Shown here: piece by piece, positions 46,536-62,379 of the stretch
How the letters are laid out: the number at the start of each line of letters is the position of its first letter
How positions within the stretch are numbered: the stretch's first letter is position 1
Notes under the pieces: model-generated
What the model was told of the DNA's origin: nothing
Seen by the model: only the letters and a program-made list of their open reading frames with translations
Databases searched by the model: none
Position numbers and translations under genes: made by a program
Source: Candidatus Woesearchaeota archaeon
GTDB lineage: Archaea; Nanobdellota; Nanobdellia; Pacearchaeales; GW2011-AR1
Length of the DNA stretch: 64,000 nt
Direction of reading: 5' to 3'
Assembly: GCA_964612895.1 (NCBI GenBank)
Contig: CAZTFL010000001.1
Coordinates: 265,043-329,042 of the forward strand

Positions 46536-46802
46536 TTATTTAATGTCTTTTTCTCCAATATATAATCCACCATATACAGCTCCATAAACAAATGGAAGTG
46601 TTTTATCTACAATTCTCATATTTGTAATATAATTTTTAACTAAATTAAAAATGTTTTCCGAATTTGGATTTGCATAATATTCATTTAGAAATTGAACTCC
46701 ATTAATAACTAAATATGCTCCACCAATCCAAGCAGCCATTGTTAAAATATTAGTTAAATTTTTCTTACCATCATCTTTTGATAAACTTTCTAAATCTTTC
46801 AT
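46536..46802 (-). CDS. Small membrane protein
   Basis: 88 aa with a hydrophobic helix AAWIGGAYLVINGV. Confidence 0.3.
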   Translation of the reverse strand: MKDLESLSKDDGKKNLTNILTMAAWIGGAYLVINGVQFLNEYYANPNSENIFNLVKNYITNMRIVDKTLPFVYGAVYGGLYIGEKDIK

Positions 46803-46859: not shown

Positions 46860-48095
46860 TTATTTTTTTGTAATATATTTCCTTAGAACTAAGAACCATA
46901 GTATATTAACTAATACCAATATTCCTATTACTATTATTAAAATTGTTACAGTATCATTACTTCCTGATGAATTTGATGAACGTTTGTCCGCACTAATTAC
47001 ATATCCTAATCCTAAAACTTTTAATTCATTTGAACTAACTATTAACTCTAAATCATTGTCTATTTTTTTGTTTCCATATTCTAAACTTACTGTTGTATCG
47101 TAACTACCTTCTTTAACACCTGATGTATCCCAATATGAAGATAATATTTGTTTTCCTAATGGTTCTATATCATAATTTGGTGATTTTATACTATCTAATT
47201 TTTTCCCATCTTTACTGTAAATTTCCATAATACTATGAACTCCTATAATTGCTTCACTCCACTTATTTTCTAAAAGCATATTTACTTTTACTATTTCACC
47301 TAAAGAGAATTCGTTTACATATAATTCTTGAAGCTCTATATTTGCCTCTCCAACCGCAAATTCATCTTCTAAATTAATTATTTTGTCGTCGTATATCAAA
47401 GCAACTTTTGCTTTATAATTTCCTATAGGGACAGAAGCTTTCCATTTGTATATTATATCTTTTTTATCTCCTGATGCTATAAAATATTTTTCTGTAAATA
47501 AACTATCTATCTTTTCATTTAATGCACTATAAACATCTATATTTGCATATACGTCTGTTAGATCAAAGTCACCTTTTGAAGCCACTGAAATAATAAATGT
47601 TGCATCCCCATTTGAATCTGCGTTTATTACATTTAATTTTGCTTCGGCGTATTTTCCCGGATATGGGACATAAACATAAACTTGAGTTACTACTGCTAAA
47701 GTCGCTCCAATATAATTCTCTCCTTCTTCTAATTTTGGATTTTCCGTTATGACAATTTCCCCAACTTGAGTCCCTGGAGATAATTGCTCAGGAAGATTTA
47801 GAAAATATGATATTTTTACTTGACTATCTGAAGAACTCATAGATACACTGCTTTTTTCTAAATTTATATAATTCGCTAAATCTCCTCTTGCCGAAATTTT
47901 CAAATTCATATCTTTATTTTCGGAATTTACTATTGTGAATGAGTATGTGTTTGAAGATTTTCCTATATAATCAATTGTATTTCTTGCTGGAGTAACTCCC
48001 AGAGCAGATATTGATGATATAAAAAATATAAAAAAAACTAAAATCAATACATAATGACTGATTCCTGATAGATAATTTTTTACGATTGATTTCAT
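46860..48095 (-). CDS. Cell-surface protein with signal peptide and C-terminal TM anchor
   Basis: N-terminal VLILVFFIFFISSISALG. C-terminal TVTILIIVIGILVLVNILWFLVLRKY. It overlaps the upstream gene by 4 nt. Confidence 0.5.
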   Translation of the reverse strand: MKSIVKNYLSGISHYVLILVFFIFFISSISALGVTPARNTIDYIGKSSNTYSFTIVNSENKDMNLKISARGDLANYINLEKSSVSMSSSDSQVKISYFLNLPEQLSPGTQVGEIVITENPKLEEGENYIGATLAVVTQVYVYVPYPGKYAEAKLNVINADSNGDATFIISVASKGDFDLTDVYANIDVYSALNEKIDSLFTEKYFIASGDKKDIIYKWKASVPIGNYKAKVALIYDDKIINLEDEFAVGEANIELQELYVNEFSLGEIVKVNMLLENKWSEAIIGVHSIMEIYSKDGKKLDSIKSPNYDIEPLGKQILSSYWDTSGVKEGSYDTTVSLEYGNKKIDNDLELIVSSNELKVLGLGYVISADKRSSNSSGSNDTVTILIIVIGILVLVNILWFLVLRKYITKK

Positions 48096-48607
48096 TTTCC
48101 CTGTACTCCTATGTATTTACTTTGTTCTAATAATATTTTTTTATCTGGAGACAAACTTACATTTTCTATAAAATGACTTTCGTTATCGTAAACTTCAACA
48201 TTAAGAATTACACTTCCTGCATTTAGTACATTATAACCATTTTCTCCTTTTACTATATTTAATATAACAGAATCTTTTATCGTTAATGTTCTTATTTCAC
48301 TTTGTGTTATTCCTATAACTTTCCAGTAATATATATTTGGTTCTAATGAAAGTGAAAGATTTTTGTTTAAATCATATTCTTTAGGATTTGTAAAATTCAA
48401 ATCTGTATCAACTATTAATTTGTCTGCGTTTTTTATAGAGAATAAAATGTTTCCACCTAAAGATTCATAGTTATCAATTGGAGCTATTACTAATGGAGTA
48501 GAAATTCCTATAATCCACATTACAGCAAATAAACTCCCAAATATCAAAAAACTATCCATTATTTTAATCATCGGATTCTGACGTCGGACATCGGATTTTC
48601 TTATCAT
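48092..48607 (-). CDS. Hypothetical membrane/exported protein in the surface-protein operon
   Basis: 171 aa with N-terminal hydrophobic segment IFGSLFAVMWIIGISTPLVIA. It overlaps both neighbours by 4 nt. Confidence 0.4.
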   Translation of the reverse strand: MIRKSDVRRQNPMIKIMDSFLIFGSLFAVMWIIGISTPLVIAPIDNYESLGGNILFSIKNADKLIVDTDLNFTNPKEYDLNKNLSLSLEPNIYYWKVIGITQSEIRTLTIKDSVILNIVKGENGYNVLNAGSVILNVEVYDNESHFIENVSLSPDKKILLEQSKYIGVQGK

Positions 48608-51600
48608 GCTTCTGTCTCCGCAAATTTAGCTTCAAATACTACCGTAGAACTCTTTAATCCTGGACCTTCATTTGGCGGCACTTCTAAATGAATATCTATT
48701 TCGGCTGAATCATTATTATCGTGAAAATCAAGAGAATCAATTATAGTAACTCTTCCTGTTATACTCATATTTACCCAATTAAATAATGATGTTAACCATT
48801 TGAATGCTCCTTCTTCTCCTGTTCTATTATCTATTTTTGTTTTATAGTATTTTGATTCTGTTTGTTGACTTGTCCATATTGGTGTAGCATTTGTACTAAT
48901 GTTTATTTTTACATTTCCGTCATTTTGTATTACAAATGGTTGTGGATTTCCTGTTGATGTGTTTTTGCTTCCTAAGTATTCTATTGAACCAAAATTTATT
49001 TCACTATTTGTTAAACTTACTACAACATATGCATTTAACCTAAATGTGTTATAATTTGTCCATGGACCATATGTTTCTCCATCGTGCGCTCTAACTCTCC
49101 ATGTATAATAATATCCGTAATCTCCTAAACATTTCAAATCTTGAGTTGGTGTCCATTCATTATTATTTAAATTATTTCTTGATATATCGTCGTTACATAT
49201 TGCTGTTCCTGCACTTTTATGTTCCTCGATTTGTAATTCGTATGTTAGTGTATCTCCATCTAAATCTGTTCCTGTCCAATTAAATTCTGGTGTTCTGTTT
49301 GTTATATCTGAATTATTTGATGGTGAATTTAGGACGACTGTTGGTAAGTTATTTTTCAAACTAATTATATTTGATTCTAAACTCATTCCGTCTTCTACTA
49401 AATCATTTGGTGTTACTACAACTGACCAGTTTTCTAAGTCTACAGTTTCATAAGAAGATAAATTTTGCATCGAGTGATTATTTAATCCTGCAGTATATAT
49501 CATTTTAATTTGTTCTTCTGATAAGGAACGGTTGAAAATTAAAACTTCGTCGATTAGACCATCCCAAGGATAAGAGCCCCCTCCTGAATGTATTCCTATT
49601 TGAAAATTTTGATTAAATGTATATGATGTATAACTTTTTTGCATACTAAATGTTCCATTTACATATAATTTTGCCATTGTTCCATTCATAACTAAAGTTA
49701 TATGTGTCCAATTTGTTGTTGCGGATGTAACTGGAGAAGATCCCCAACCACTGTTCTGTATTCCCATATCCCAATATCCATTATAATGAGATAGATACAT
49801 TCTAGCATTTGCGTCAGGAGATTGTCCTAAAGACATAAACATTTTCGCTACACTTGGATTATCAGATTTCACCCACATAGAAAATGTTATTGGTTGAGTT
49901 GATGGATTCTTTCCAGCTCCATAAGGAATGTTAATATAATCATCTGTGCCGTCAAAATTATATGCTCCACCAACTTTTCCGTTAGTTGTCCATGTTGCTC
50001 CATAAACTGTTCCGTTATTCCCGTTTTTTGAATAATCTTTTGTCCACGATGATGTGCTGCCTCCTTCAAATGGCATATTTAAAACTGCTATACTATTATT
50101 GTTTACTCTCCAGTCTGTAATGTTGTAAACTGTGTCTTCTGGATCTGAATCGTGAGATTGTATTACTACAGACATATTTTCTGATGTTCTTATTCGTCCG
50201 TTTGTTGTATTTAATACGACTGAATCAACTACTGGTAAAATATTTACTCTTGACCATACTCTAGTTTCTGTTGAATTACAATTATTCGCCATATCACACG
50301 CTTTAGATGAATACCAGTGTTCTCCACGAGATAAATTCGTTATATTCATTGATAGTGACCAATCTGATTCTGAGAGTTTTTGTAAATTTGATTCGTATAA
50401 TAATTTAATTTCTGCGTCAGTTAAAGAACGATTGTATACACGAACTTCGTCCATGTGTCCGTTTAGATAATTTGCAATACTTCCACTTGCTCCAATTATT
50501 AAATCTTTATTATTATTCCAACTACTTGTTGATAGTGCACTTCCTCCTATCAAAATCCCGTCTACGTATAAATATCTTACATTGTTTCTAACAACTCCTA
50601 CTAGATGATGCCATTGATTAATGTCTGATGCCACTCTTGTTGCGTATGGAGAATTTGCTCCGTTCCAAGAGATAAACATAAAACCATTTTCTTCAAATCC
50701 GTATGCTAATCCTGCTCCTTTTAGCGTGCTGTCTCCTTTGTGTATTATTCCGTAACTTCCAACTGATTTTAGTTTTACCCAAGCAGAAACTGTAAAATTA
50801 TCTGATAAATCTAATGTTGGATTGTCGTAAACTCTAATATAATCATTTCCGTCGAAACTCATTCCTTTATTATGTTTCCCTGACTCATTATAGACTGCGC
50901 CTACGACTACTCCGTTATTTCCTGTTCCTGAAATATCTCTGACGAATGTATTATTTTCTTCTAAGCTTGTTAAGTTTTGGAAGTTCATAGCGAGAACTAA
51001 TCCGTTTCCTAAAGAACTGAAATTTGTATTATCTAATGTAAAATTTAAATCTCTCAAACTGTAATCTATTACTTCTACTTTTATATTCGTATAAGAATTT
51101 GGCGTTTGTGTTTCGTTTGTTGGTGTTGGTGATACGAATCTTATTTGTGGGGATCCACTATCTATATAAAATGGTCCTAATCTTGTAACATTTCCGGCAT
51201 TTCCGGCGCCATCCAATGCTTTAATATGGAAATAATTAACTCCTTCATTTAATGAACAGGTAAAATTTGTTTGTGTTGTATTTATAATATTATTTGGAAG
51301 TGATCTTTCCCAATCATCACATATAACTGAATACCCAGCAACACCTGTTGTTATTGATTGGTTTTTTATTTCGTATATTTTTACTGAATTTATTGTAATA
51401 TCTTTTGCAGAGCTTGAAGCAAAATCATCTAATAATATTTTTCTTAAGCCTTCTGTTGTTGGTGTGTAGGTAAATTCGTAAACTCCTGTTGCTGTAAAAT
51501 TTGGCGCTGTATTTTGCCAGGCTAACATTCCTGCATTAATTGTTAAGTTTAAGATTACTCTATATGGTTTATTTAGTTCCATTATATTTGTTGTTGAAAG

Positions 51601-54600
51601 CATATATGTATCAGAACCGCCTGCGCCATAGTATATTCTTGGTTTATTGTTTGCTCCAACTTCCCACTGTCCTGCGTTTGCTGTCCATCCCGACCATTTC
51701 GACGACATAGGATTTGTTGCTGTGTAATTTGAAAAATCTCCGTTATAAACTAAATTATCTTCATTTCCTTCTTTATCTTGAGTTCTAACATAGTAAAAAT
51801 AATCATCTCCTGTGTCTGTTGAGGCTGTCCAGTTAAAAATTGCTGAATTAAATGTGTAGAAACCGCCAACTGAAACGTTCGGAGATGATAAACTTGAAAC
51901 GTTTGAAGGAGATTTAATGTCTGAAGATGTGAATTCTAAATAATTTGATTTTGAGATATTTTCTCCGTTAACTGTTAATTTTAAATTATCAATTATCGTT
52001 GTGTATGTAGAATCTTGAGCATAATTTACTCCCATACTAAATTTTACAAACTTTGTACCATGCCAGAATTTATTATTATTAGTACTGTATAATGCTTCTC
52101 CTTTTATTGTACCACTTTTTTGCGTCCAAGAAAATGGAATTAAACTTCCAGAACTTGCTGTGTAAATATCTCCACCACTTGTGTGCATTCTTATTTTTGT
52201 TCCGGCAGAATATGTTTTTCCGACTGTAGTTCCGAATTCAATTTCACAATAATCTCCCATATTTTGAACTCTTGTAATATTTCCATTTCCTAAATCTCTA
52301 TTAGGTAAATCTGCATAGTTTCCTGAATCGTCTACGTTAAACGCTATACGACCATGATTTAATACATACCAATTGGTACAATTTTTTATTTTTACTATTT
52401 TATCTGTTGATTTTATATCTTCATATAATTCAGTATGTGTTCCACCCACAGTATTAACATTCGCAGCACCTATACTTTGTTTGTTTTGATCATAACCAAC
52501 AAATCCGAAATATAATCTACTTTGTCCACCTGTTCCATTTGATTTAAACATTCCGGACAATATATATTCAGAAGTATTATCCACTGGAATTAAATCTGTT
52601 GTATAAAGCCATTTATTTCCTATTTCATAAAATGCGTAATTTCCTTGATAAGAATCTGTAGTTACTCCGTCAAATCCGAAATTTGTTAGAGTTCCAAGTT
52701 CTGCATCTCCATTTATTATTGGTAAGTTTACGTCCAAATATTGTCCTGTTTGTGTTTCTGAACGATAAAGTTTATGTTTAATTAATCCGGATTGCATATC
52801 GTTTATAATTTCTTTTTGTGTAAGAGAACGATTGTATACACGAAGTTCGTCTAATTTTCCTTTAAACCATTGTCTTTGATTCCATGCACCTATTTGTGAA
52901 TATATTGGAATTGTTCTTAAAACACTAGAAGTATTTACTAAAACTCCATCTAAATACAATGTTTGTCTTGTAGAATTTTGAACTAATGAAAAATGATGCC
53001 AATTATTAAGAGTATAATAAGCACTTGCTCCTCCAGAATACATTACTAATCTACTTGTGCCACTCCAAATACTTTCAAATTCAAAACCTGAAGAAGGAGG
53101 CCTACTTCCTAATATAGTTCCCCATGATCCAGAAACATCAGTTCTATAAAACCAACCCGATAATGTATAAACAGATAGAGCTGTTGAAAGAGTTATATTA
53201 ATATAATCATCTGTTCCGTCGAAACTTAAAGCTCCACCATTACCTTCTTTTCCAGATGTCCAAGTTGGATTTCCATTCATTATTCCGTGATATTCATTCC
53301 CGCTCCAATCGTATGCTATTGTTCCGTTTCCTTCTTCAAATGGCATGTATAAAACTAATCCGTTGTCTTGTGCGTCTATTTTAACGTCTATTTTGTTTGT
53401 AGATGAATTTGCTATTGGTATTAACAATGGATTGATTGGTTTTGTTCTGTCGGCTGTTATGTTGTATGCAGTATTACTATAACCTGAATATGTTCCTCCT
53501 ATGAAACTTCTTATTTTATAAAAATATATTGAATTATCTAATAAGTTATCGTCTAAATATATTTCTGTGTTTTCTGATGTCGTGTTTATTTCATTGAATG
53601 TTGAATTGTCCGGACTTCTTTCTATAGAGAAACCGTCTTCTCCACTTGAACTATCTACCCAAGTTAAATTTAGAGCTCCTTTTCCGGAATTTAATACTTT
53701 ATCATTAATTACACTAACGTTTAAGCTGGATGGGGACATATCTATTGTCAGATTTCTTGTAGATGAGTTTGTATTTCCCGCTAAATCTTGAGAGTAAATT
53801 GTATAATTATAAAATCCGTTTCCGATATCTTGAAAATTGTTCCCGTATTGATTTGATTGCGCGTTATAAATTGATTTTATTTCTGAGTCGGATAAAGCAC
53901 GATTAAAAATCATAACGTCGTCAAGAGAGCCGTTGAGCCAATAATTTCCTCCGCCTAACCTTGCAGTTGCTATTGTTTGAGGAACATAATTTAAATTCCA
54001 AGTTCCAGTATTGTCTAAGACTCCATCTACATATATTTTTGTATTAGATGAAGGTTTTGTCCCATCAAATGTTACTGTAATATGATACCATTGCTTTGCG
54101 TTCCAGGTATTTTTTATACTATTTAACGTATAGTAAGTTCCTGCATTATCTTTAATTTCCCAATATAACTTATTAACACCTTTCTGGAAAGATAAAAAAT
54201 ATGCTCTTTGTGTATCAACATCCCTTTTCCCAATTAATTGAGGATATTCACTAACTTGTCCAGATGGAATTTGATTTAAATTTACCCATAAAGATATTGT
54301 TTCTGATGTTGTTGGATTAATAACGCTACTATTTCCTAAATTTATATAATCGTTTCCGCCAAATTCATACGCTAACCCTCTTTTCCCGCCGGTCACACTT
54401 GGACAAGATGCGCCTGAACATGTTCCATTATTTCCATATTTTGATGAATCAATAAATGTTATACCATCTGTTGTTTCTTCTAACTTCCACCATCCAACTA
54501 GTGAATTATTGAAATCTAAGAATGCTGAATGTTCTCCTGCGGCGTCGGACGATGTTGCGTTTATTGTAAAATAAGAATTTTGTAGCGTAGAATTACTTGC

Positions 54601-55137
54601 TGGTGTACTTCCACTAAAATATACGTTTGGTGTTACATTGTCTACATTAAAACTTACTGTGTCTTTTCCTATGTTGTTTGCCGAATCGTTACAATAAACG
54701 GCCCAGTTGTTTTTTCCTATTACGGTTTTTGAATATATATTTGTCCAGTTTGTTCCAGCGACAAGGGCTGTTGAGTTTGTTATTCCATTATCTTTACTAT
54801 ACCAACAATAAAGCGCTGTGGCATCTACTGTATAGTTCAAATTTCCTATGAGACTATAATATAAATTATCTCGAACTGGATAAGTTATCTGAACATTTGA
54901 GGATGTTGTATCTATTCCATAAAATAATCCTACAAAATTGTTAAAATTTAAAGATGAAATAACTCCTGATAAAATTCCTAAGGCTGTTTTTGATAAAAAA
55001 TTTGATGAGTTTGTTTGTGTTCCACCTGAAGAGACGACCGCAGCGTCTATATTATAGTTTGTACTATTAATTCCTGCACAAACAAACCCTATCCCAAATA
55101 GAAAAATAAAAATTCCTAGAACTAATTTATTTTCCAT
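48604..55137 (-). CDS. Giant secreted surface protein (2177 aa) with multiple LamG/ConA-like jelly-roll and Ig/FN3-like domains
   Basis: N-terminal signal VLGIFIFLFGIGFVCAG. There are at least four LamG terminal motifs: DDVMIFNRALSDSEIKSIY, DELRVYNRSLTQKEI, DEVRVYNRSLTDAEIKLLYE and DEVLIFNRSLSEEQIKMIY. Confidence 0.7.
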   Translation of the reverse strand: MENKLVLGIFIFLFGIGFVCAGINSTNYNIDAAVVSSGGTQTNSSNFLSKTALGILSGVISSLNFNNFVGLFYGIDTTSSNVQITYPVRDNLYYSLIGNLNYTVDATALYCWYSKDNGITNSTALVAGTNWTNIYSKTVIGKNNWAVYCNDSANNIGKDTVSFNVDNVTPNVYFSGSTPASNSTLQNSYFTINATSSDAAGEHSAFLDFNNSLVGWWKLEETTDGITFIDSSKYGNNGTCSGASCPSVTGGKRGLAYEFGGNDYINLGNSSVINPTTSETISLWVNLNQIPSGQVSEYPQLIGKRDVDTQRAYFLSFQKGVNKLYWEIKDNAGTYYTLNSIKNTWNAKQWYHITVTFDGTKPSSNTKIYVDGVLDNTGTWNLNYVPQTIATARLGGGNYWLNGSLDDVMIFNRALSDSEIKSIYNAQSNQYGNNFQDIGNGFYNYTIYSQDLAGNTNSSTRNLTIDMSPSSLNVSVINDKVLNSGKGALNLTWVDSSSGEDGFSIERSPDNSTFNEINTTSENTEIYLDDNLLDNSIYFYKIRSFIGGTYSGYSNTAYNITADRTKPINPLLIPIANSSTNKIDVKIDAQDNGLVLYMPFEEGNGTIAYDWSGNEYHGIMNGNPTWTSGKEGNGGALSFDGTDDYINITLSTALSVYTLSGWFYRTDVSGSWGTILGSRPPSSGFEFESIWSGTSRLVMYSGGASAYYTLNNWHHFSLVQNSTRQTLYLDGVLVNTSSVLRTIPIYSQIGAWNQRQWFKGKLDELRVYNRSLTQKEIINDMQSGLIKHKLYRSETQTGQYLDVNLPIINGDAELGTLTNFGFDGVTTDSYQGNYAFYEIGNKWLYTTDLIPVDNTSEYILSGMFKSNGTGGQSRLYFGFVGYDQNKQSIGAANVNTVGGTHTELYEDIKSTDKIVKIKNCTNWYVLNHGRIAFNVDDSGNYADLPNRDLGNGNITRVQNMGDYCEIEFGTTVGKTYSAGTKIRMHTSGGDIYTASSGSLIPFSWTQKSGTIKGEALYSTNNNKFWHGTKFVKFSMGVNYAQDSTYTTIIDNLKLTVNGENISKSNYLEFTSSDIKSPSNVSSLSSPNVSVGGFYTFNSAIFNWTASTDTGDDYFYYVRTQDKEGNEDNLVYNGDFSNYTATNPMSSKWSGWTANAGQWEVGANNKPRIYYGAGGSDTYMLSTTNIMELNKPYRVILNLTINAGMLAWQNTAPNFTATGVYEFTYTPTTEGLRKILLDDFASSSAKDITINSVKIYEIKNQSITTGVAGYSVICDDWERSLPNNIINTTQTNFTCSLNEGVNYFHIKALDGAGNAGNVTRLGPFYIDSGSPQIRFVSPTPTNETQTPNSYTNIKVEVIDYSLRDLNFTLDNTNFSSLGNGLVLAMNFQNLTSLEENNTFVRDISGTGNNGVVVGAVYNESGKHNKGMSFDGNDYIRVYDNPTLDLSDNFTVSAWVKLKSVGSYGIIHKGDSTLKGAGLAYGFEENGFMFISWNGANSPYATRVASDINQWHHLVGVVRNNVRYLYVDGILIGGSALSTSSWNNNKDLIIGASGSIANYLNGHMDEVRVYNRSLTDAEIKLLYESNLQKLSESDWSLSMNITNLSRGEHWYSSKACDMANNCNSTETRVWSRVNILPVVDSVVLNTTNGRIRTSENMSVVIQSHDSDPEDTVYNITDWRVNNNSIAVLNMPFEGGSTSSWTKDYSKNGNNGTVYGATWTTNGKVGGAYNFDGTDDYINIPYGAGKNPSTQPITFSMWVKSDNPSVAKMFMSLGQSPDANARMYLSHYNGYWDMGIQNSGWGSSPVTSATTNWTHITLVMNGTMAKLYVNGTFSMQKSYTSYTFNQNFQIGIHSGGGSYPWDGLIDEVLIFNRSLSEEQIKMIYTAGLNNHSMQNLSSYETVDLENWSVVVTPNDLVEDGMSLESNIISLKNNLPTVVLNSPSNNSDITNRTPEFNWTGTDLDGDTLTYELQIEEHKSAGTAICNDDISRNNLNNNEWTPTQDLKCLGDYGYYYTWRVRAHDGETYGPWTNYNTFRLNAYVVVSLTNSEINFGSIEYLGSKNTSTGNPQPFVIQNDGNVKINISTNATPIWTSQQTESKYYKTKIDNRTGEEGAFKWLTSLFNWVNMSITGRVTIIDSLDFHDNNDSAEIDIHLEVPPNEGPGLKSSTVVFEAKFAETEA

Positions 55138-55145
55138 AAAACTAA

Positions 55146-55397
55146 TTATTTAGACACATTTAGACATTCGATTGCAACTATTGTTAGAGTTTGATTTCCA
55201 CTCATTAACGGAACTGATTGACAACTGCCAGTCTGTTGCATTATCTGAGAGATTGCGTACTCATAACCTGCTTGATAGACTTGAACTTGTTCGTTATATC
55301 TAGCGGTTGTGTAAAAGCCATACCCTATATATCCTAAAGCAACAATCAACAAAACTCCTAAAATAATCGCAACAATCAAAGAAATATTTTTTTTCAT
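55146..55397 (-). CDS. Small pilin-like/anchor protein heading the surface operon
   Basis: 83 aa. KKNISLIVAIILGVLLIVALG is a single N-terminal hydrophobic helix after a basic stretch. There are two Cys in the C-terminal half. Confidence 0.4.
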   Translation of the reverse strand: MKKNISLIVAIILGVLLIVALGYIGYGFYTTARYNEQVQVYQAGYEYAISQIMQQTGSCQSVPLMSGNQTLTIVAIECLNVSK

Positions 55398-55494
55398 TTT
55401 ATAAACCTCCTTTTGATTTTTACCATCGTAATATTAAAAAAATCTAAGTTTATAAAAGCAACGGATTTTAGAAAAATACTGAAAAATTATTCTA

Positions 55495-56250
55495 TTAGAA
55501 ATGTTTTAAGATATTATTGAAATATTCAAAATCTCTTTTACTAACTTGTCCTAAAATTTTTAAATCAGGAGAAATAATCTTTCCTTCATCATTTATTGTC
55601 GCTGGATTTGTAGGTTCTGAAAATCGAACAAATTTCAAATTATCTAAAATTAAATCATATGTTCCTCCAAAATCTTGAGAGAAGTTATTTATGTCCATTT
55701 TTTGTGTTCTATATCCTATAGAAAACATTTTATCATTTGCTAGATTTATAATAGATCCTGCTTCTGCTTTTAATATTTCTAAAAAAATAGACGGATATTC
55801 ATCCTCTTTTGTGATTTCTCTTTTCACAAATTCAACAATATTATTATCTAATACAAAATACCAGACAAATTCTTTTCTATTAGTATTTGGATTTTTCTGA
55901 ATATCAGAATATGTTTCTATATTTTCTAATTTTGAATACATCGCAAAATTAGGATCTTCTAATTTTCTTGTTATTGATTTAGAACTTATTCCATATTTTT
56001 GGTTTAATAGTTCATATTCTTCATTAGATAAATCTTCATGAAAATGAGCTTGTTTTAGTTTTTGTTCTAATTTGCTTTGATATTTAGATGTTGTTTCTTT
56101 TTGTTGTTCTGCCACAATTGAAGTTCCTGAATAATTTTCTGTTGGTTGAACTTCTCTTGAACAAGAACTAAATAATAAAGGAATAGACAAAAGCCCAGCT
56201 GCTAATATATTTTTTAATGAGTATTTGTGATTTTTATAACCACTTTCCAT
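55495..56250 (-). CDS. Putative lipoprotein
   Basis: Signal peptide ends LLFSSCS (lipobox-like). 251 aa. Confidence 0.4.
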   Translation of the reverse strand: MESGYKNHKYSLKNILAAGLLSIPLLFSSCSREVQPTENYSGTSIVAEQQKETTSKYQSKLEQKLKQAHFHEDLSNEEYELLNQKYGISSKSITRKLEDPNFAMYSKLENIETYSDIQKNPNTNRKEFVWYFVLDNNIVEFVKREITKEDEYPSIFLEILKAEAGSIINLANDKMFSIGYRTQKMDINNFSQDFGGTYDLILDNLKFVRFSEPTNPATINDEGKIISPDLKILGQVSKRDFEYFNNILKHF

Positions 56251-56287
56251 GAATATCTATATAATTACTACTATATAAATGTAACTT

Positions 56288-57262
56288 TTATAATATAAAA
56301 TAATGCCCATATGAAAATTTCAGATCATAATTTAAACCCTTTAATCCTATTTTTATTTGTTCAATATTGGAACATCCTATTTTGGTATTTCCATATAAAT
56401 TAATTATATTCACGGCTATTTGCTCTCCTTTCAAATCAGAATTACATATTTTACTGGCTTTTTCACAGTTAGGTTCTGTACATTCGCAATATCTTTTTAT
56501 GTTTTCTATTAAACATTTATTCTTAGAATTAATTAAATATTCTGATAATATTTGTGAAAAAGATTCTCCTTCTTCTAATTTTACTTCCGAATAGCCCTTT
56601 GATGCTTCAAGCTCAATACTACCATATGAATAACATGCATCTTGCATTGTTACTAAACTATAACTTCTACCTGTTGGAATCTGTTTATTTATTTTTGTAA
56701 ATGAATCGCTACAAGCTTTTTTCCTTATGTTTGTTGTATTATATTTTGATGCATCTGCTATTTCTGATTTAATTTCTTTTATTCGAAGATTAGTCTCGTC
56801 AAAACTGATATCGAATGAAGAACCTAAATCAAGTGGAGCTGATGTAAAATCTTTTATTGGATATTTTAAATCTTTACAATATTTTATATTACAGGTTATA
56901 GAATTCTCATCGTCTTCATATACTGGACATACACAAATTGTGTTTTTTGGAGATTTTTTTAAAAAGAAATTATATAAGTCAAAACTCTCGCAATCTTGAT
57001 AATTAGTTTCAAAATATACTAAAAAATATCTTGTAGGTGAATAATCCCTATATACCAAATAGTTATCTTTTCCATTTTTTTCTGCAAGTGATATTGATTC
57101 TTCTAAATATTCAAAGAAACCTTTTGCAATTTCGTCTTCTTTATTGTATTTTCCTATGAGACTTACTAATAATATTATTAGAATAAAAACACTTGCTGCG
57201 GCAAGAATAATTTCAGGCATACTTTCAGAAAGTAAAGTTGAACCTCTTTTGTTTGATTTCAT
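56288..57262 (-). CDS. Cys-rich exported protein with class-III-like N-terminal signal
   Basis: The N-terminus NKRGSTLLSESMPEIILAAASVFILIILLV has KRG followed by a small residue and a hydrophobic helix. There are more than 15 Cys in the mature part. Confidence 0.4.
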   Translation of the reverse strand: MKSNKRGSTLLSESMPEIILAAASVFILIILLVSLIGKYNKEDEIAKGFFEYLEESISLAEKNGKDNYLVYRDYSPTRYFLVYFETNYQDCESFDLYNFFLKKSPKNTICVCPVYEDDENSITCNIKYCKDLKYPIKDFTSAPLDLGSSFDISFDETNLRIKEIKSEIADASKYNTTNIRKKACSDSFTKINKQIPTGRSYSLVTMQDACYSYGSIELEASKGYSEVKLEEGESFSQILSEYLINSKNKCLIENIKRYCECTEPNCEKASKICNSDLKGEQIAVNIINLYGNTKIGCSNIEQIKIGLKGLNYDLKFSYGHYFIL

Positions 57263-57303
57263 GAATTTATAAATCTTATTTAATTAATAAAAGTTATGGG
57301 AAC

Positions 57304-58110
57304 TTATGCCCAACTCTTACTGATTTTTTCTTTCCAAAAAGATGGTAATGGAATGTCAATAAATCCTTGAAACTTATTAGAATATACGTAAGTTAGTCCT
57401 TTTATTTCATTATACTTCTCAAAATCTTCTTGTATTTTTTTATATATTTCTTGAATTATTTTTCTTTCAAAATCTTTTTGTAATAATGAGGATTTTTTTA
57501 ATATCAAAAAATCTGCTTGTCTTAAAATATTAACTTCTAAATTTGAAGAATTTTGTGATACAAATAATATACTTATGTCTTTATGTCTTGCAATCATAAT
57601 TAATTCGCTTAGTAATCTATTAGCGTTTGTCATGGACTTTCTTGAATTAAATAAAATTCCACCTTCATCTATTAAAACAAAAGACTTATTTGTTATTTGA
57701 GCAATATCAGATATCGAATTTATCCATTCTGGTAATTCTTCCTCGTTAAAACCTATTGCAAAAATTTTTTTATTTGATTTTGAATGAATATTTTCTAATA
57801 ACTTCAAACCGAAAGCACTTTTCCCAGAGCCCCTTGAACCTAGAACTATCCCAATCTGACTATCTGATTTTAGTAAATTATTAAACAAATCTAAATATTT
57901 TCCTTTCTCTGATTTAATTATTTTGACTTCTTCATATTTTGATTCAATCAGGATTCTTTTATGTTTTTGATTTATTTTTTTAATTTTTTGTTTAGATTCT
58001 TTAAATAATGAAATGCAAAATTTAATCAATATGAATGGTAATTTAAGTAATAATAAAATTATTTTAAATAAATTATATAAAACATTTTTCTTCTTTTTGT
58101 TCTTTTTCAT
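57304..58110 (-). CDS. Membrane-anchored P-loop NTPase
   Basis: N-terminal TM. Walker A is VLGSRGSGKSAFGLKL. Walker B-like is FVLIDEGG. Confidence 0.5.
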   Translation of the reverse strand: MKKNKKKKNVLYNLFKIILLLLKLPFILIKFCISLFKESKQKIKKINQKHKRILIESKYEEVKIIKSEKGKYLDLFNNLLKSDSQIGIVLGSRGSGKSAFGLKLLENIHSKSNKKIFAIGFNEEELPEWINSISDIAQITNKSFVLIDEGGILFNSRKSMTNANRLLSELIMIARHKDISILFVSQNSSNLEVNILRQADFLILKKSSLLQKDFERKIIQEIYKKIQEDFEKYNEIKGLTYVYSNKFQGFIDIPLPSFWKEKISKSWA

Positions 58111-58134
58111 ATTATATAGAAATAAATCTTGTTT

Positions 58135-59046
58135 TTATTTTCTTGCTTTAACTAAATCTGTGACTAATTTTGACATTTCTCCTAAAAAGGCGTCAGACAT
58201 TACAAAAAGTTCATCTAACATTTTTCCTTCTATACTTGTTTTTACTCCATGAACTATATCTTTAGCTATTGTATGAATGATATCATAATATTTAACATAT
58301 TTTTTATCTAATAATTTGTTTTTTACAAAATTATCTTCTAATACTTTTGAAATATCCTCTGGAGAAGCGGGCATTATATCTGCAGAAATTAAAGCTGCGT
58401 GTGCTGCATCAACCATTCCCCAATAAATACCATCAACTACAGCCAACATTAATCCTTTTGCTCTTGTAAAATGAGTTGGAGCCCTTTCTAATAATGTATA
58501 AATTGATTCTGGGGTTGCCCTAATTTTCCCTTCTTTTAATAATAGCCTTAATGGTGCAAAGAAACCTCCGAAATCTATCAGTGGTTCTCCACTTCTTAAT
58601 ATATTTAATACTATTGGATCACCTCTTAGTAAATCGTTCCACCATGTAGATAACTTAACAGAACTTATGTGTAATGGTTTTTGATATTTATTTTGTTCTA
58701 ATATTATCGCAAGTCTTTTTCTATACCATGCAATTAATTCTTCATCAAATTTTATAGAAATATCATCAATTAATATAATTACATCTATATCTGATTGTTG
58801 AGTAGAATCTTTTTTAACACTTGAACCAAACAAAACTATAGATTTAATCATTGTATCAAATTCTTTATAGATTTTTGTTGCGAAATCCATCGCAATTTCT
58901 TGTTCTGTTGCTAACAACATTGTGTTTTTAACTGTCTGAATTCTTTTCATTAGTTGACTCTTATTCTTTGGTGGAATAGAATAATCTTCTTTTTTATTAT
59001 TTTTAGAACTATTATTAGATTTTTTTGCCATAATCACTCTCTTCAT
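58135..59046 (-). CDS. Polbeta-superfamily nucleotidyltransferase with C-terminal helical (possibly HEPN-like) domain
   Basis: LFGSSVKKDSTQQSDIDVIILID matches the minimal NTase signature GS-x(n)-DxD. The C-terminal ~150 aa is helical and includes ERAPTHFTRAKG. Confidence 0.55.
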   Translation of the reverse strand: MKRVIMAKKSNNSSKNNKKEDYSIPPKNKSQLMKRIQTVKNTMLLATEQEIAMDFATKIYKEFDTMIKSIVLFGSSVKKDSTQQSDIDVIILIDDISIKFDEELIAWYRKRLAIILEQNKYQKPLHISSVKLSTWWNDLLRGDPIVLNILRSGEPLIDFGGFFAPLRLLLKEGKIRATPESIYTLLERAPTHFTRAKGLMLAVVDGIYWGMVDAAHAALISADIMPASPEDISKVLEDNFVKNKLLDKKYVKYYDIIHTIAKDIVHGVKTSIEGKMLDELFVMSDAFLGEMSKLVTDLVKARK

Positions 59047-59175
59047 TAGTTTATAGTAGTCATATTTTATAAATCTTTTTGAAGAGAAAATATTTTAATA
59101 AACATAATAATAATAATGTTTTCAAAAAGTATTAAATTTAATTAACTTTAAATAGTATATATATTAATTTATTAT

Positions 59176-59337
59176 ATGGCATCAACACCACCTGGACCAC
59201 AAAAAATGAAAATAGATTATACTATTGACAGAAAAGTCTATGATTCTTTTGTTAAAACATGTAGCCATAAGGGATTTGCCCCACAGGTTATAGTTGAAAG
59301 ATTAATGGGCAAGTTTGTGGAAAAAGGCCAAGTTTAG
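59176..59337 (+). CDS. Small ribbon-helix-helix (CopG/RHH-type) DNA-binding protein, 53 aa
   Basis: Own translation: MASTPPGPQKMKIDYTIDRKVYDSFVKTCSHKGFAPQVIVERLMGKFVEKGQV. It has a beta-strand then two helices in the RHH pattern. It is below the 60-aa ORF-track cutoff, so it is absent from the track. Confidence 0.4.
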   Translation: MASTPPGPQKMKIDYTIDRKVYDSFVKTCSHKGFAPQVIVERLMGKFVEKGQV

Positions 59338-59374
59338 ATTTTATAATAATTTTATTTTTTTATTTAATATTTTT

Positions 59375-60190
59375 TTATTTATAACATTTATCCAATATTG
59401 TATCAAAAGAACTATTTATTTTTCCTGCCATAAATTCATAAAATTCTTGTTCTCCTTTGGATAGTCCAGTATTGTCCTGTGCTCTATTATTATTATAACC
59501 ATCTACAGCATTTTCCAGATGAGTATAGTAATCAAATCTTTCTCCTGATTTTATTATTGGCATTGGAATTTTGTAATGATTTAAAATTATATTTTGTAAT
59601 GTTCTTGCGGTCCTACCATTCCCATCAACAAATGGATGTATTCTTGCTATTTGAAAATGGGCAAATGCTGAAGCAATTATTACATCAACTGGATCAATTG
59701 GATTAGCATTTTCTATTTTACTAAATTGTTTATTTAAAGAACAAACGAAACTTGGAATTTCATAATTTGAAATTTTTTCATAATTTGGCATCACTTTACA
59801 ACCATTTTTACCATTTAATCTAGCAGAAACTGTTCTATATTTTGCTATAGAATTATCATATATTTCTGGTGAAATCATTCCTGCTATTTCTCGAACAAAT
59901 GATTCTTCAAAATTTTTTGGATTAAAATTTTTTATTCCCCATAATCTTGCATTATTAATAGATTTTATACCATTTCTTGTTGTTTTTTTTCTTGTACTTC
60001 TTGATACTGATGGAAATTCATTGTAAACATTGGGATTTTCTATTTTGTATGATTCATATTCGGCATCTTCTATAATTCTTTTCATTTGATTTTTTTCACA
60101 TTGAAAATAAAAATTATCATTTTCTATAGAATTTAGTATTCTATATTTATTTCTTAATTCAGAAGATAATTGCCTAGAAACGCATTCCAT
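59375..60190 (-). CDS. Fic/Doc-family protein (AMPylase-type)
   Basis: Canonical Fic motif HPFVDGNGRTARTL. Confidence 0.8.
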   Translation of the reverse strand: MECVSRQLSSELRNKYRILNSIENDNFYFQCEKNQMKRIIEDAEYESYKIENPNVYNEFPSVSRSTRKKTTRNGIKSINNARLWGIKNFNPKNFEESFVREIAGMISPEIYDNSIAKYRTVSARLNGKNGCKVMPNYEKISNYEIPSFVCSLNKQFSKIENANPIDPVDVIIASAFAHFQIARIHPFVDGNGRTARTLQNIILNHYKIPMPIIKSGERFDYYTHLENAVDGYNNNRAQDNTGLSKGEQEFYEFMAGKINSSFDTILDKCYK

Positions 60191-60286
60191 GTAAAAAGAA
60201 TGTAAATAGTATATTTAAGTGTTACTATATAATAGTATATAAATCATATAACAAGAAATAAAAATATATTTTGTTTGTTTTAAAAA

Positions 60287-60922: not shown

Positions 60923-61078
60923 AGATGAGAGTTTATTTCTATTAACATTAAAATTAAATATAATTTTACGAAAATAAATGAATATTCAAAAAATAAATGA
61001 ATGTGAAATAAATTGACAAACAAAATATAGTAAAGTTATTAAATACTAAATAATATTAATTATTAGGGATGTATAAAA

Positions 61079-61384: not shown

Positions 61385-61524
61385 TTTGTTTTTTAATTTT
61401 TATAAAATGTCTATTTATTGTATTTAACATCGGGGTTTAAGGGAAGTTTATAATAGGATTTTGAGCGAAGCGTCCTTTGAATTTTTGAATTGCATATAAT
61501 GTTCACAGAACTAAGAGGGAAATT

Positions 61525-62268: not shown

Positions 62269-62379
62269 TGGATCTTTGTAAAATGGAAGTGGTTCTGTAT
62301 TATTTATTATATAAATATTATAATTATTAATATTAAATACTTTTCTGTTTTGATTTAAGACGCCCCTTCATATTATTTT

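What the first reader, a model, noticed from the sequence alone, without database searches (positions are those of the whole stretch)
46860..55397. Surface operon: small pilin-like protein, a 2177-aa LamG/Ig-repeat giant protein, then two membrane-anchored proteins, all with 4-nt overlaps
The operon is four co-directional genes on the minus strand, with ATGA-type overlaps at 48092-48095 and 48604-48607. It runs from an 83-aa single-helix protein, through the giant protein with at least four LamG modules, to a 411-aa protein with a signal peptide and a C-terminal TM anchor. Giant LamG proteins are typical attachment factors of episymbiotic DPANN/CPR cells. The small leading protein may be a dedicated anchor or pilin.
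Basis: partly seen in the sequence, partly recalled or inferred. Interest (0 to 1): 0.5.

Follow-up and report, generated by a model that had tools for sequence, protein, structure and literature searches.

The report
Conserved DPANN adhesin-display gene cassette
The four genes are real and form a cassette conserved across many tiny DPANN archaea, in which a huge, fast-evolving lectin-like surface protein carries fixed modules at both ends and is always encoded with three small membrane proteins that most likely hold it on the cell, much like the WxL/Csc surface complexes of Gram-positive bacteria.

Summary
Four co-directional minus-strand genes (83, 2177, 171 and 411 aa) sit at the stated coordinates, with two ATGA overlaps and four LamG domains.

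The giant gene is not an assembly chimera. Two other read sets reproduce both halves with no mismatches, and orthologues of 2208 and 2221 aa in other species are collinear.

The operon is one copy of a cassette found in at least 183 DPANN species (Pace-/Woesearchaeota, a few Aenigmatarchaeota). A large secreted protein of about 420 to more than 7000 aa always ends in the same ~260-aa C-terminal module. That module is at the C-terminus of over 1100 protein clusters. Tightly coupled 171-aa and 411-aa homologues follow it.

Between orthologues the LamG modules are 28-52% identical, while scaffold and termini are 57-77%.

The 411-aa protein has a signal peptide, three Ig domains and a C-terminal anchor. 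It recurrently but weakly matches the WxL-interacting protein of enterococci. The giant's last ~150 aa are homologous to small stand-alone proteins in related loci. Together these mirror Gram-positive Csc/WxL clusters.

The 83-aa protein occurs only with signal-peptide-type giants. This suggests an anchor supplied in trans, not a pilin.

The docking mechanism is inferred, not shown.

The parts
55398..55494 (-). Intergenic leader upstream of the 83-aa gene. It holds a TATA-like TTTTATAAA (55449-55457) and a GGAGG (55406-55410) 8 nt before the ATG. It is the probable start of the transcription unit.
   Evidence: Sequence read directly. Synteny with relatives begins at the 83-aa gene, and the upstream genes are not conserved. 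The motif evidence is weak because the genome is 27% GC. The bacterial promoter and terminator scan was at chance level.
55146..55397 (-). p83: an 83-aa single-pass membrane protein. It has an N-terminal TM segment and a ~50-aa external domain with two conserved Cys and 3 sequons. It is the proposed trans-acting membrane anchor for the giant's N-terminus.
   Evidence: Homologues lie directly upstream of the large gene in all 8 distinct signal-peptide-type loci with enough flank. They are absent from 8 loci whose large protein has its own N-terminal TM anchor.
48604..55137 (-). Giant secreted adhesin gene (2177 aa).
   Evidence: Collinear orthologues of 2208 and 2221 aa exist. There are 74 NxS/T sequons.
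54913..55071 (-). N-motif (aa 23-75). Three S-x-N-[YF] units sit at the mature N-terminus, directly after the V-C-A signal-peptidase site. This is the best-conserved part of the giant, at 74-77% identity between orthologues.
   Evidence: The segment is modelled as disordered (pLDDT below 50) in the monomer model of a small family member.
53875..54363 (-). LamG module 1 (aa 259-421), hypervariable (28-36% identity to orthologues).
52807..53220 (-). LamG module 2 (aa 640-777), hypervariable (35%). Its 3' end carries one copy of a 58-nt intragenic repeat, where the short-read contigs break (52822-52845).
51343..51897 (-). Fifth variable module (aa 1081-1265). It has no Pfam family and is the least conserved segment, at 14-29%.
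50404..50853 (-). LamG module 3 (aa 1429-1578), hypervariable (29-30%).
49504..49953 (-). LamG module 4 (aa 1729-1878), variable (37-52%).
49051..49392 (-). Conserved C-terminal module, first half (aa 1916-2029), an fn3/PKD-like domain.
   Evidence: It is 70-71% identical to orthologues.
48607..49050 (-). Conserved C-terminal module, terminal beta-sandwich domain (aa 2030-2177). It has no Pfam family and is the proposed docking domain.
   Evidence: The module was found immediately upstream of the 171/411 pair in 60 of 64 loci. A profile of the module hits 1176 protein clusters at E <= 1e-30, almost always at the extreme C-terminus of proteins of 268-5817 aa. It is homologous to a family of ~210-aa stand-alone proteins (hhalign 99%, E 5e-18).
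48092..48607 (-). p171: a type II membrane protein with an N-terminal TM segment, then a ~125-aa all-beta ectodomain. Conserved motifs are PLVIAP.D, PG.YYWKV and VVNAGN..LNVDVY. There are no catalytic-looking residues. It is a proposed co-receptor or clamp for the docking domain.
   Evidence: It is adjacent to the 411-aa homologue in 50 of 64 loci. The gap to the giant is <= 20 nt in 37 of 40 loci.
46860..48095 (-). p411: signal peptide, three Ig-like domains (~37-118, 132-248, 253-361), a Ser-rich linker, a C-terminal TM helix (381-410) and a basic tail. It is the most conserved protein of the cassette and the proposed membrane anchor that binds the giant's C-terminal domain.

Best explanation
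This is a four-gene cassette of a DPANN archaeon (Pace-/Woesearchaeota) that displays an adhesin on the cell surface.

The 2177-aa protein is exported by Sec, loses a 22-aa signal peptide and is probably heavily N-glycosylated. It has no membrane anchor of its own. Its middle is an interchangeable, fast-evolving payload of four LamG lectin-like modules, one further variable module and Ig/fn3 spacers. This payload most likely recognises a host-cell surface.

Its two ends are fixed family modules. I propose that the C-terminal ~260-aa module docks non-covalently on the ectodomains of the two co-translated single-pass membrane proteins. These are p411 (three Ig domains on a C-terminal anchor) and p171 (a small beta ectodomain on an N-terminal anchor). 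I propose that the N-terminal S-x-N-Y motif is held by the 83-aa membrane protein.

Functionally this is the archaeal counterpart of the Gram-positive Csc/WxL cell-surface complex. That complex combines a large protein with a variable N-terminus and a fixed C-terminal docking domain, small proteins made only of that domain, and an Ig-Ig-TM partner.

Shown: the genes, their topology, domain content, conservation, synteny, modularity and mosaic divergence.

Inferred: physical docking, which partner binds which end, glycosylation and host binding.
For: 1. The genes are real and coupled. The ORFs and ATGA overlaps are confirmed. Across 40 loci the gaps are <= 20 nt or overlapping in 37-38.

2. The cassette is conserved. 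The 411-aa family occurs in 183 species-level DPANN genomes. The C-terminal module lies within 1.6 kb upstream of it in 60 of 64 loci, and p171 is adjacent in 50 of 64. Metagenome loci show the same order with large proteins of 1011, 2221, 5616 and 7674 aa.

3. The ends are fixed and the payload is swappable. A profile of the C-terminal module hits 1176 clusters at E <= 1e-30, at the extreme C-terminus of proteins of 268-5817 aa. Minimal members of ~420-450 aa consist of signal peptide, N-motif, one Ig domain and the module. Payloads include LamG, beta-helix or no known domain.

4. Divergence is mosaic. LamG modules are 28-52% identical and a fifth module 14-29%, against 57-77% for spacers and termini.

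6. p83 co-occurs only with signal-peptide-type large proteins, in 8 of 8 loci. It is absent from 8 of 8 loci where the large protein has its own N-terminal TM anchor.

7. The N-motif lies at the mature N-terminus and is disordered in a monomer model, while the rest of the protein has pLDDT above 90. This fits a segment that folds on a partner.

8. Sequons are enriched in the giant (74, z 5.2) and in p83 (z 3.7), but not in cytoplasmic proteins.

9. Large LamG/ConA-like, sequon-rich proteins are already proposed as host-attachment factors in other DPANN (PMC7443923).
Against: No interaction was tested.

The similarity of p411 to WxLIP is weak. The window's own protein scores 17.6 bits against a cutoff of 28.9. 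A family profile finds no PDB sequence at E <= 10. Generic tandem-Ig proteins (Hydin and CFAP ASH domains, GH2 Ig domains) score as well or better.

The docking domain shows no WxL signature, and its fold could not be matched.

Many family members (class B) have an N-terminal TM anchor and still carry the C-terminal module. If the module is a membrane-proximal dock, those proteins would be tethered at both ends. That is unusual and may mean the module does something other than anchoring.

The small stand-alone paralogues and the rest of the larger locus (MoxR, DUF58/VWA) are not in this window.

There are no expression data.
Confidence: 0.55

Rival explanations
1. This is a fibre or pilus assembled by strand donation. 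In this reading the conserved terminal domain is a pilin-like domain, the small ~210-aa paralogues are the shaft subunits, and the giant is the tip adhesin with a variable head on a C-terminal pilin domain, as in FimH or PapG. The mature N-terminal S-x-N-Y segment is the donated strand or strands. p411 and its paralogue act as PapD-like chaperone or platform proteins.
For: The giant's terminal domain is homologous to the small stand-alone proteins. These occur in 1-3 tandem copies, like major and minor pilins.

The N-motif sits at the mature N-terminus and is disordered in the monomer model.

Minimal family members are almost nothing but N-motif plus C-terminal module, which suits a building block.

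The best Foldseek hits of p411 are ASH/PapD-like tandem Ig arrays, and the 154-aa partner in related loci hits a Cep192 ASH domain.

Strand-donation pili do exist in archaea (PMC12337348, PMC11821415), and in tafi the LamG protein TafC is modelled at the tip.
Against: The terminal domain is modelled as a complete, confident beta-sandwich without a partner (pLDDT above 90).

p411 is membrane-anchored, unlike soluble chaperones.

The small subunits are not in this window.

No dedicated signal peptidase of the TafD or SipW type lies in the cassette.

The TafC match covers only the LamG domain.

Class B large proteins lack the N-motif altogether.
Confidence: 0.2
2. p411 is the cell-envelope (S-layer-like) protein of these archaea. 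The giant is simply an adhesin that plugs into that lattice through its C-terminal module.
For: p411 has the architecture typical of archaeal S-layer glycoproteins: signal peptide, several Ig domains, a Ser-rich linker, a C-terminal TM segment and a basic tail. It is very widespread and highly conserved. One Foldseek hit is the Haloferax S-layer protein 7ptp (E 7e-8).
Against: p411 has only 2 sequons, no more than chance and far fewer than the giant.

It is translationally coupled behind a giant gene by an ATGA overlap, in a conserved way. This fits a stoichiometric partner better than a very abundant lattice protein.

A paralogue sits a few kb away, paired with its own small subunit.

The S-layer hit is one of hundreds of generic Ig matches.
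Confidence: 0.1
3. p171 and p411 are export or folding helpers, not anchors. In this reading they are membrane-bound holdases that capture the last-emerging C-terminal module during Sec export of very long beta-rich proteins and then let go.
For: The partners recognise the part of the protein that leaves the translocon last. Class B proteins already have their own anchor yet still need the pair. Neither partner has catalytic motifs. The tight coupling suits co-translational action.
Against: Family members of only ~420 aa with trivial folding demands keep the full cassette. No precedent was found in the searched literature. The Csc/WxL parallel argues for a stable complex.
Confidence: 0.08
4. 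The operon belongs to an integrated virus or mobile element, and the giant is a virion or host-range protein.
For: PHROG matches include a 'virion structural protein' family (E 1e-36). Directly upstream lie a Zot-like ATPase resembling one from Lokiarchaeota virus WyrdV1, a nucleotidyltransferase, a Fic protein and, further on, an integrase.
Against: The PHROG matches are LamG-domain matches. p411 has no match in 50,697 phage records. The cassette is chromosomal in 183 species, next to housekeeping genes such as gyrase, ribosomal proteins and RFC. The upstream genes are not conserved with it.
Confidence: 0.03

Closest known systems
Csc / WxL cell-surface complex clusters of Lactobacillales and Bacillales (CscA = WxLIP, CscB = small WxL, CscC = large WxL, CscD = tiny anchored protein; PMC1534035, PMC10599100; PDB 9i1y, 9i25)
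   Same: The parts list matches one for one:
- A large secreted protein with a variable N-terminal binding part, which in CscC includes ConA-like lectin domains, and a fixed C-terminal domain.
- Small proteins that are only that domain, in 1-4 copies. In DPANN these sit in related loci.
- A partner of ~320-410 aa built as signal peptide, Ig domains and a C-terminal TM helix.
- A very small anchored protein of 83-140 aa.
- All genes lie in one tightly packed operon.

The membrane-proximal Ig domain of the p411 family recurrently matches WxLIP_HBD, and the fold search retrieves WxLIP.
   Different: No WxL domain or W-x-L motifs are present. No DUF916/PGBD match was found. p411 has three Ig domains rather than two. 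There is an extra partner, p171, with no Csc counterpart. The small protein is anchored by an N-terminal TM segment rather than by LPXTG and sortase. The host is an archaeon without peptidoglycan, so the wall-binding role of WxL cannot apply. The large proteins are far bigger, up to more than 7000 aa. Homology is at best remote and rests only on the HBD-like domain.
Tat-fimbriae (tafi) of haloarchaea, minor subunit TafC (NCBIfam NF052521; PMC11821415, PMC12337348)
   Same: Both are archaeal surface structures in which a LamG-domain protein is the proposed distal adhesin. Both have small Ig-like subunits and membrane proteins encoded in one cluster, and assembly by beta-strand donation is proposed or shown.
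   Different: The match to TafC is 109 bits against a cutoff of 410 and covers only the LamG part, profile positions 123-366. The giant has a Sec signal peptide, not a Tat one. No TafD-type signal peptidase, TafA or TafE is present in the cassette.
Large LamG/ConA-like and SPEARE-type surface proteins of Nanohaloarchaeota (PMC7443923)
   Same: Both are DPANN proteins that are very large, LamG-rich and sequon-rich, and predicted to mediate host attachment.
   Different: The giant has no protease or restriction-endonuclease domains. The conserved terminal modules and the three dedicated membrane partners have not been described for those proteins in the papers I could search.
Chaperone-usher adhesins (FimH or PapG with the PapD chaperone)
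   Same: The adhesin is a variable receptor-binding head plus a C-terminal domain shared with small shaft subunits. The partner consists of tandem PapD/ASH-like Ig domains.
   Different: There is no outer membrane or usher. The partner is membrane-anchored. The terminal domain is modelled as a complete fold. No sequence similarity was found.

Membership tests
Concanavalin A-like / Laminin_G_3 (PF13385) proteins | A match to the family profile above the gathering score. | tested here: met
   Four domains total 290.6 bits against a cutoff of 27.6. Each piece scores 68-111 bits on its own.
Csc/WxL cluster | A WxL domain (160-190 aa with two W-x-L motifs) at the C-terminus of the large protein. 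| tested here: not met
   No WxL Pfam match at E <= 1 in the giant's C-terminal pieces or in 20 family members. The family profile finds no WxL chain among PDB sequences.
Csc/WxL cluster | A WxLIP/CscA partner built as signal peptide, DUF916 (PGBD), DUF3324 (HBD) and a C-terminal TM helix. | tested here: inconclusive
   The signal peptide and C-terminal TM helix are present. HBD (PF11797) is matched by 21 of 40 family members, best E 3.4e-7, at the right position, but the window protein scores 17.6 bits against a cutoff of 28.9. DUF916 is not matched. Structural hits to 9i1y and 9i25 are no better than generic Ig arrays.
Csc/WxL cluster | Large and small proteins share the same docking domain and are encoded beside the Ig-TM partner. 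| tested here: met
   hhalign of the giant's terminal domain against the ~210-aa family gives 99% probability and E 5e-18. The small genes lie next to a p411 paralogue in 41 of 54 loci. They are not present in this window.
Csc/WxL cluster | Non-covalent binding to peptidoglycan. | not testable with these tools
   This needs biochemistry. The hosts here are archaea, where peptidoglycan is not expected.
Tafi minor subunit TafC (NF052521) | An equivalog score of at least 410 bits over the full profile, including the N-terminal TafA-like domain. | tested here: not met
   The score is 109.3 bits, and only profile positions 123-366 (the LamG part) are matched.
Tafi system | A twin-arginine signal peptide and a TafD-type signal peptidase in the cluster. 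| tested here: not met
   The N-terminus MENKLVLGIF... has no RR motif. Pfam and NCBIfam scans of the cassette proteins and of the six neighbours scanned on either side gave no signal-peptidase match.
Type IV pilin (for the 83-aa protein) | A class III signal peptide, with a basic stretch, a G/A cleavage site and then a hydrophobic helix, plus a PilB/PilC-type ATPase and platform in the locus. | tested here: not met
   The N-terminus MKKNISLIVAIILGV... enters the helix with no G/A cleavage motif. No such ATPase or platform is conserved with the cassette.
Strand-donation pili (chaperone-usher, TasA/Abp or tafi type) | A subunit with an N-terminal donor strand and an acceptor groove in an incomplete Ig fold. 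| tested here: inconclusive
   The N-motif at the mature N-terminus is disordered in the monomer model, but the terminal domain is modelled as complete with pLDDT above 90. No multimer model could be run.
Archaeal S-layer glycoprotein (for p411) | Signal peptide, Ig domains, a Ser/Thr-rich linker and a C-terminal anchor, together with many N-glycosylation sequons and very high stand-alone expression. | tested here: inconclusive
   The architecture is met. Sequon richness is not met, with 2 sequons and z -1.3. Expression is not testable. The gene is overlap-coupled to the upstream gene.
SPEARE proteins of Nanohaloarchaeota | Serine protease and restriction-endonuclease domains beside the adhesion domains. 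| tested here: not met
   No such Pfam matches appear in the whole protein or in ten overlapping pieces.

The most novel reading that the evidence does not exclude
The cassette is the adhesin-bearing arm of a DPANN-wide, so far undescribed surface assembly system. In this reading a universal ~150-aa C-terminal docking or subunit domain is present on more than a thousand protein clusters of 0.3-7 kaa and also occurs as small stand-alone subunits. Dedicated Ig-TM and TM-beta partners capture this domain in duplicated modules, one for each kind of subunit. Any payload could then be plugged onto the cell surface. The system would be either a remote archaeal homologue of the Gram-positive WxL/Csc complex or a new strand-exchange fibre. 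It would give the first defined molecular handle on how Pace- and Woesearchaeota hold on to their hosts.
Probability: 0.35. Interest if true: 0.72.

Novelty: new variant of a known kind. Interest (0 to 1): 0.55.

Why it matters
Pace- and Woesearchaeota are among the most abundant uncultured archaea, and how they attach to hosts is unknown. Their lineage-specific membrane and extracellular protein families are recorded only as 'unknown function' (PMC8204110).

This work turns one anonymous operon into a defined, testable module. There is a fixed C-terminal tag that identifies the surface-displayed proteins of these organisms, in thousands of clusters. There are three candidate receptor and anchor proteins. 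And there are clear hypervariable LamG patches that should carry host specificity.

If the docking model holds, three things follow. The tag can be used to list the full adhesin repertoire of any DPANN genome. The variable modules can be used to predict host range. And the resemblance to Gram-positive WxL/Csc complexes would extend that design principle across domains of life, to cells without peptidoglycan.

Tried and rejected
- **Chimeric assembly.** Rejected. Logan contigs from two runs match the window with 0 mismatches over 15,986 and 11,179 nt. They abut with a 24-nt overlap at 52822-52845, inside a 58-nt repeat found at the end of every LamG module. Orthologues are collinear across the junction.
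- **Near-identical protein repeats in the giant.** A self-BLAST found none at E <= 1e-3.
- **TafC or tafi membership.** The match covers the LamG part only.
- **N-motif profile search.** It gave only 3 weak hits and led nowhere.
- **C-terminal module word-index search.** It found only 20 proteins, mostly fragments. The exhaustive profile search was needed.
- **Homology of p171 to other parts.** hhalign of p171 against the 154-aa partner, the fn3-like half or the terminal domain gave no support, at 1-26% probability. Against the small-subunit family it was ambiguous at 50%.
- **Fusexin or HAP2 idea.** p411 hits only the Ig-like domain 3 of HAP2 and Fsx1, and there is no class II fusogen core.
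- **Diversity-generating retroelement.** No template/variable repeat pair was found in the window.
- **Promoter and terminator scan.** The bacterial consensus scan was at chance level.
- **Second module elsewhere in the window.** The small subunits, the p411 paralogue and MoxR are absent.
- **Provirus origin.** p411 is absent from phage records.
- **Organism name.** None was recoverable from the cluster look-up.

Full report
**1. Observation**

The ORF table gives four co-directional minus-strand genes exactly as reported: 55146-55397 (83 aa), 48604-55137 (2177 aa), 48092-48607 (171 aa) and 46860-48095 (411 aa). The junctions at 48092-48095 and 48604-48607 both read ATGA. The first two genes are 8 nt apart.

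The leader upstream of the 83-aa gene has a TATA-like TTTTATAAA and a GGAGG 8 nt before the ATG. In a 27% GC window this carries little weight.

Pfam finds four Laminin_G_3 domains in the giant at aa 259-421, 640-777, 1429-1578 and 1729-1878. They total 290.6 bits against a cutoff of 27.6. There are also sub-threshold Big_13 and fn3 matches. About 40% of the protein matches no family.

Hydropathy and an AlphaFold model give the topology:
- giant: signal peptide only;
- p83: N-terminal TM segment;
- p171: N-terminal TM segment;
- p411: signal peptide, three Ig-like domains, a Ser-rich disordered linker and a C-terminal TM helix at 381-410.

**2. Is the giant ORF an assembly artefact?**

It is not. 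Independent Logan assemblies of runs SRR11845628 and SRR11845629 carry the C-terminal 1413 codons plus the downstream genes, with 0 mismatches in 15,986 nt. Another contig carries p83 plus the first 772 codons, with 0 mismatches in 11,179 nt.

The two contigs overlap by 24 nt at window 52822-52845. That point lies inside a 58-nt repeat present at the 3' end of each of the four LamG modules. This repeat is a likely cause of the short-read break.

Orthologues from other species are collinear with the giant over its whole length, including the junction. They are 2208 aa in L005 and 2221 aa in L004 and L008, and about 53-54% identical overall.

**3. Whose genome is it?**

The 411-aa protein has more than 336 homologues of ~400 aa at 43-77% identity. 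The few that carry names are 'Candidatus Pacearchaeota archaeon' or 'archaeon'.

A scan of species-representative genomes found 183 loci. Nearly all are labelled Woesearchaeota, Pacearchaeota or Nanoarchaeota. A few are Aenigmatarchaeota and one is Parvarchaeum. Two labels (Patescibacteria, Methanosarcinales) look like binning errors.

Related loci sit beside archaeal ribosomal proteins and RFC. The window's own proteins are on a 635-kb NCBI contig without names.

**4. The operon is one instance of a conserved cassette**

In metagenome loci the order is a ~85-aa gene, a large gene, a ~165-aa gene and a ~400-aa gene. The large protein is 1011, 2221, 5616 or 7674 aa in these loci.

A tblastn survey of 84 loci found the following:
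- The giant's last ~260 aa lie immediately upstream of the p171/p411 pair in 60 of 64 loci with enough flank.
- p171 is adjacent in 50 of 64.

Gene spacing is tight everywhere. The gap from the large gene to p171 is <= 20 nt in 37 of 40 loci. The p171 to p411 junction overlaps or is <= 20 nt in 38 of 40.

The genes upstream of p83 in the window (251, 324 and 268 aa) are found in no other locus. The unit therefore starts at p83.

**5. Fixed ends, swappable middle**

Comparing the giant with the 1011-aa protein of L003 shows two conserved parts only. One is the mature N-terminus, with three S-x-N-[YF] units directly after the V-x-A signal-peptidase site (alignment). The other is the last ~260 aa, an fn3/PKD-like domain followed by a ~150-aa beta-sandwich.

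An exhaustive profile search with the C-terminal module found 8896 protein clusters at E <= 1e-3 and 1176 at E <= 1e-30. The match lies at the extreme C-terminus of proteins of 268-5817 aa in almost every listed case.

Some family members are only ~420-450 aa. They consist of signal peptide, N-motif, one Ig domain and the module. Payloads include LamG, NosD-type beta-helix or nothing recognisable.

Two main N-terminal classes exist. Class A, the window's type, has a Sec signal peptide and the N-motif. Class B has a small cytoplasmic K-K-Y..G-P-Y-Y-Y-E segment followed by a TM anchor. Among the 146 best representatives, 17 are class A and 38 are class B. The window's giant is the longest class A protein in that set.

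**6. Mosaic divergence**

Identity to the two orthologues varies sharply by region:

| Region | Identity to orthologues |
|---|---|
| N-motif | 74-77% |
| Ig/fn3 spacers | 57-76% |
| C-terminal module | 65-71% |
| LamG modules 1-4 | 28-52% |
| Module at aa 1081-1265 (unannotated) | 14-29% |

The binding modules therefore change fast on a conserved scaffold. This is the pattern expected of a host-recognition adhesin.

The giant has 74 N-x-S/T sequons, or 3.4 per 100 aa, with z = 5.2 against shuffles. p83 has 3 (z 3.7). Cytoplasmic proteins of the window have 0.3-1 per 100 aa. Heavy N-glycosylation is inferred from this, not shown.

**7. The partners**

The p411 family is strongly conserved, with mean column identity 56% over 40 members and 48 invariant columns. 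The model (pLDDT 84) shows three beta-sandwich domains on a C-terminal anchor.

Pfam gives only weak hits, but one recurs. 21 of 40 members match WxLIP_HBD (PF11797), best E 3.4e-7. The match always falls in the Ig domain just before the linker and TM helix, which is the position this domain has in WxLIP.

p171 is a TM helix followed by a ~125-aa beta ectodomain. It has conserved motifs but no catalytic-looking residues and no Pfam match.

p83 is a TM helix plus a ~50-aa domain with two conserved cysteines. It has no prepilin motif.

**8. A second, paralogous module in related loci**

In 41 of 54 loci with enough downstream sequence, the cassette is followed by further genes in this order:
- a ~64-aa TM protein;
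- 1-3 copies of a ~210-aa protein;
- a p411 paralogue (25-28% identity);
- a ~154-aa TM-beta protein;
- proteins of ~670 and ~1310 aa;
- a MoxR ATPase and a DUF58/VWA protein.

hhalign shows that the ~210-aa proteins are homologous to the giant's terminal ~150-aa domain, with probability 99% and E 5e-18 over 146 columns.

So there are 'large' and 'small' carriers of the same domain. Each is encoded with its own Ig-TM protein and its own small TM-beta protein. None of this second module is in the window.

**9. How it most likely works**

The parts list matches the Gram-positive Csc/WxL clusters described in PMC1534035 and PMC10599100:
- a large protein with a variable, often lectin-like N-terminus and a fixed C-terminal domain;
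- small proteins that are only that domain;
- a signal peptide-Ig-Ig-TM partner that binds the domain;
- a tiny anchored protein.

I therefore propose that the secreted giant is retained on the cell by non-covalent docking of its C-terminal module on p411 and p171.

The p83 data add a second tether. p83 homologues lie upstream of the large gene in all 8 distinct signal-peptide-type loci with flank. They are absent from 8 class B loci that have more than 1.3 kb of upstream sequence. This suggests that p83 supplies in trans the N-terminal membrane anchor that class B proteins have in cis.

The N-motif is disordered in a monomer model whose other domains have pLDDT above 90. This is consistent with a segment that folds on a partner.

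All of these interaction steps are inferences.

**10. Weak points and rivals**

Class B proteins would be tethered at both ends under the docking model. This is odd and leaves room for other roles of the module.

A strand-donation fibre, with the giant as tip adhesin and the small paralogues as shaft, explains several observations. These are the tandem small subunits, the N-terminal extension and the minimal 'connector-only' members. Against it, the terminal domain is modelled as a complete fold and p411 is membrane-bound.

p411 could instead be an S-layer-like envelope protein. Its architecture fits, but it is poor in sequons and is overlap-coupled behind the giant.

An export-helper role and a viral origin are less likely.

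The tafi system of haloarchaea is a useful functional analogue, with a LamG protein modelled at the tip of a strand-donation pilus. The TafC match here is only LamG-deep, at 109 bits against 410.

**11. Novelty**

Giant LamG proteins as presumed DPANN attachment factors are known (PMC7443923). Lineage-specific membrane and extracellular families of Pace- and Woesearchaeota have been listed without function (PMC8204110).

In the literature I could search, I found no description of the following points. No paper combined WxL with DPANN:
- the conserved cassette;
- its universal C-terminal module;
- the large and small paralogue pairs;
- the resemblance to Csc/WxL.

I rate it a new variant of a known kind, of moderate interest. 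The value lies in turning an anonymous operon into a concrete, testable model and a genome-mining tag. No unexpected mechanism has been demonstrated.

Noticed in passing
window 1501-12771: This region holds an integrase-like gene (1501-2661) and a second LamG protein of 858 aa with three LamG domains (2728-5304). That protein is depleted in sequons (z -2.9), unlike the giant. The region also has a DNA methylase-like gene, small multi-TM proteins and a 969-aa TraG/VirB4/HerA-like ATPase (9862-12771). It looks like an integrated conjugative or DNA-transfer element that carries its own adhesin.
   Followed up: partly
window 16077-26655: This looks like a defence island. A protein with the CTD6 domain of ABC-3C systems (18356-19423) has two neighbours of unknown function. 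Next to it is a type I restriction-modification system with two HsdM genes, an S-like gene and HsdR (19536-26655).
   Followed up: no
window 55495-64000: The block directly upstream of the cassette is not conserved in any related locus. It holds a 251-aa protein with a lipobox-like FSSC. A 324-aa Cys-rich protein has an N-terminus (KRG/STLLSE followed by a hydrophobic helix) that resembles a type IV prepilin. A 268-aa TM-anchored Zot-like P-loop ATPase is 29% identical to the AAA+ ATPase of Lokiarchaeota virus WyrdV1. There are also a nucleotidyltransferase and a Fic protein. A tyrosine integrase is cut by the window end (seen in L085). This may be an integrated virus or mobile element.
   Followed up: partly
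L003 6518-16384 and about 40 other loci (for example L012, L013, L017, L042): A second, paralogous module lies downstream of the cassette. It holds a 64-aa TM protein, 1-3 small subunits of ~210 aa, a p411 paralogue, a 154-aa TM protein with a Cep192/ASH-like domain, proteins of ~670 and ~1310 aa, a MoxR AAA ATPase and a DUF58/VWA protein. This large conserved DPANN surface locus has unknown function and is absent from the window.
   Followed up: partly
L020, L026, L044, L065, L067, L071, L072, L082 (N-termini of the large genes) and the small-subunit family, for example L003 6712-7350: Class B large proteins start with a conserved cytoplasmic segment K-K-Y-x-Y-K-x-G-K-K-Y-G-P-Y-Y-Y-E..R..G.V..Y-L-G, then a TM helix, then an (I/L)-(T/S)-G-(N/Y/F)-A motif. 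The same post-TM motif occurs in the ~210-aa small subunits. This suggests a shared processing site for an unidentified peptidase.
   Followed up: no
window 49506-49563, 50406-50463, 52806-52863, 53877-53934: A 58-nt repeat (67-78% identity) lies at the 3' end of each LamG module. It encodes the D-E-V-R-[VI]-Y-N-R-[SA]-L-[ST]..E-I motif. The copy at 52806-52863 coincides with the break between the two short-read contigs.
   Followed up: yes
window 46536-46802: An 88-aa ORF with one central hydrophobic segment lies between the cassette and the YbjQ-family gene. It has no homologue in any of the related loci. In the close relative L004 this position holds a truncated p411 paralogue of 301 aa instead.
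   Followed up: partly
L040 (JAHYJW010000006.1) and L015 (CAYWLA010000080.1): Two loci with the full DPANN cassette are labelled 'Patescibacteria group bacterium' and 'uncultured Methanosarcinales archaeon'. These are probably binning or labelling errors in the public MAGs.
   Followed up: no
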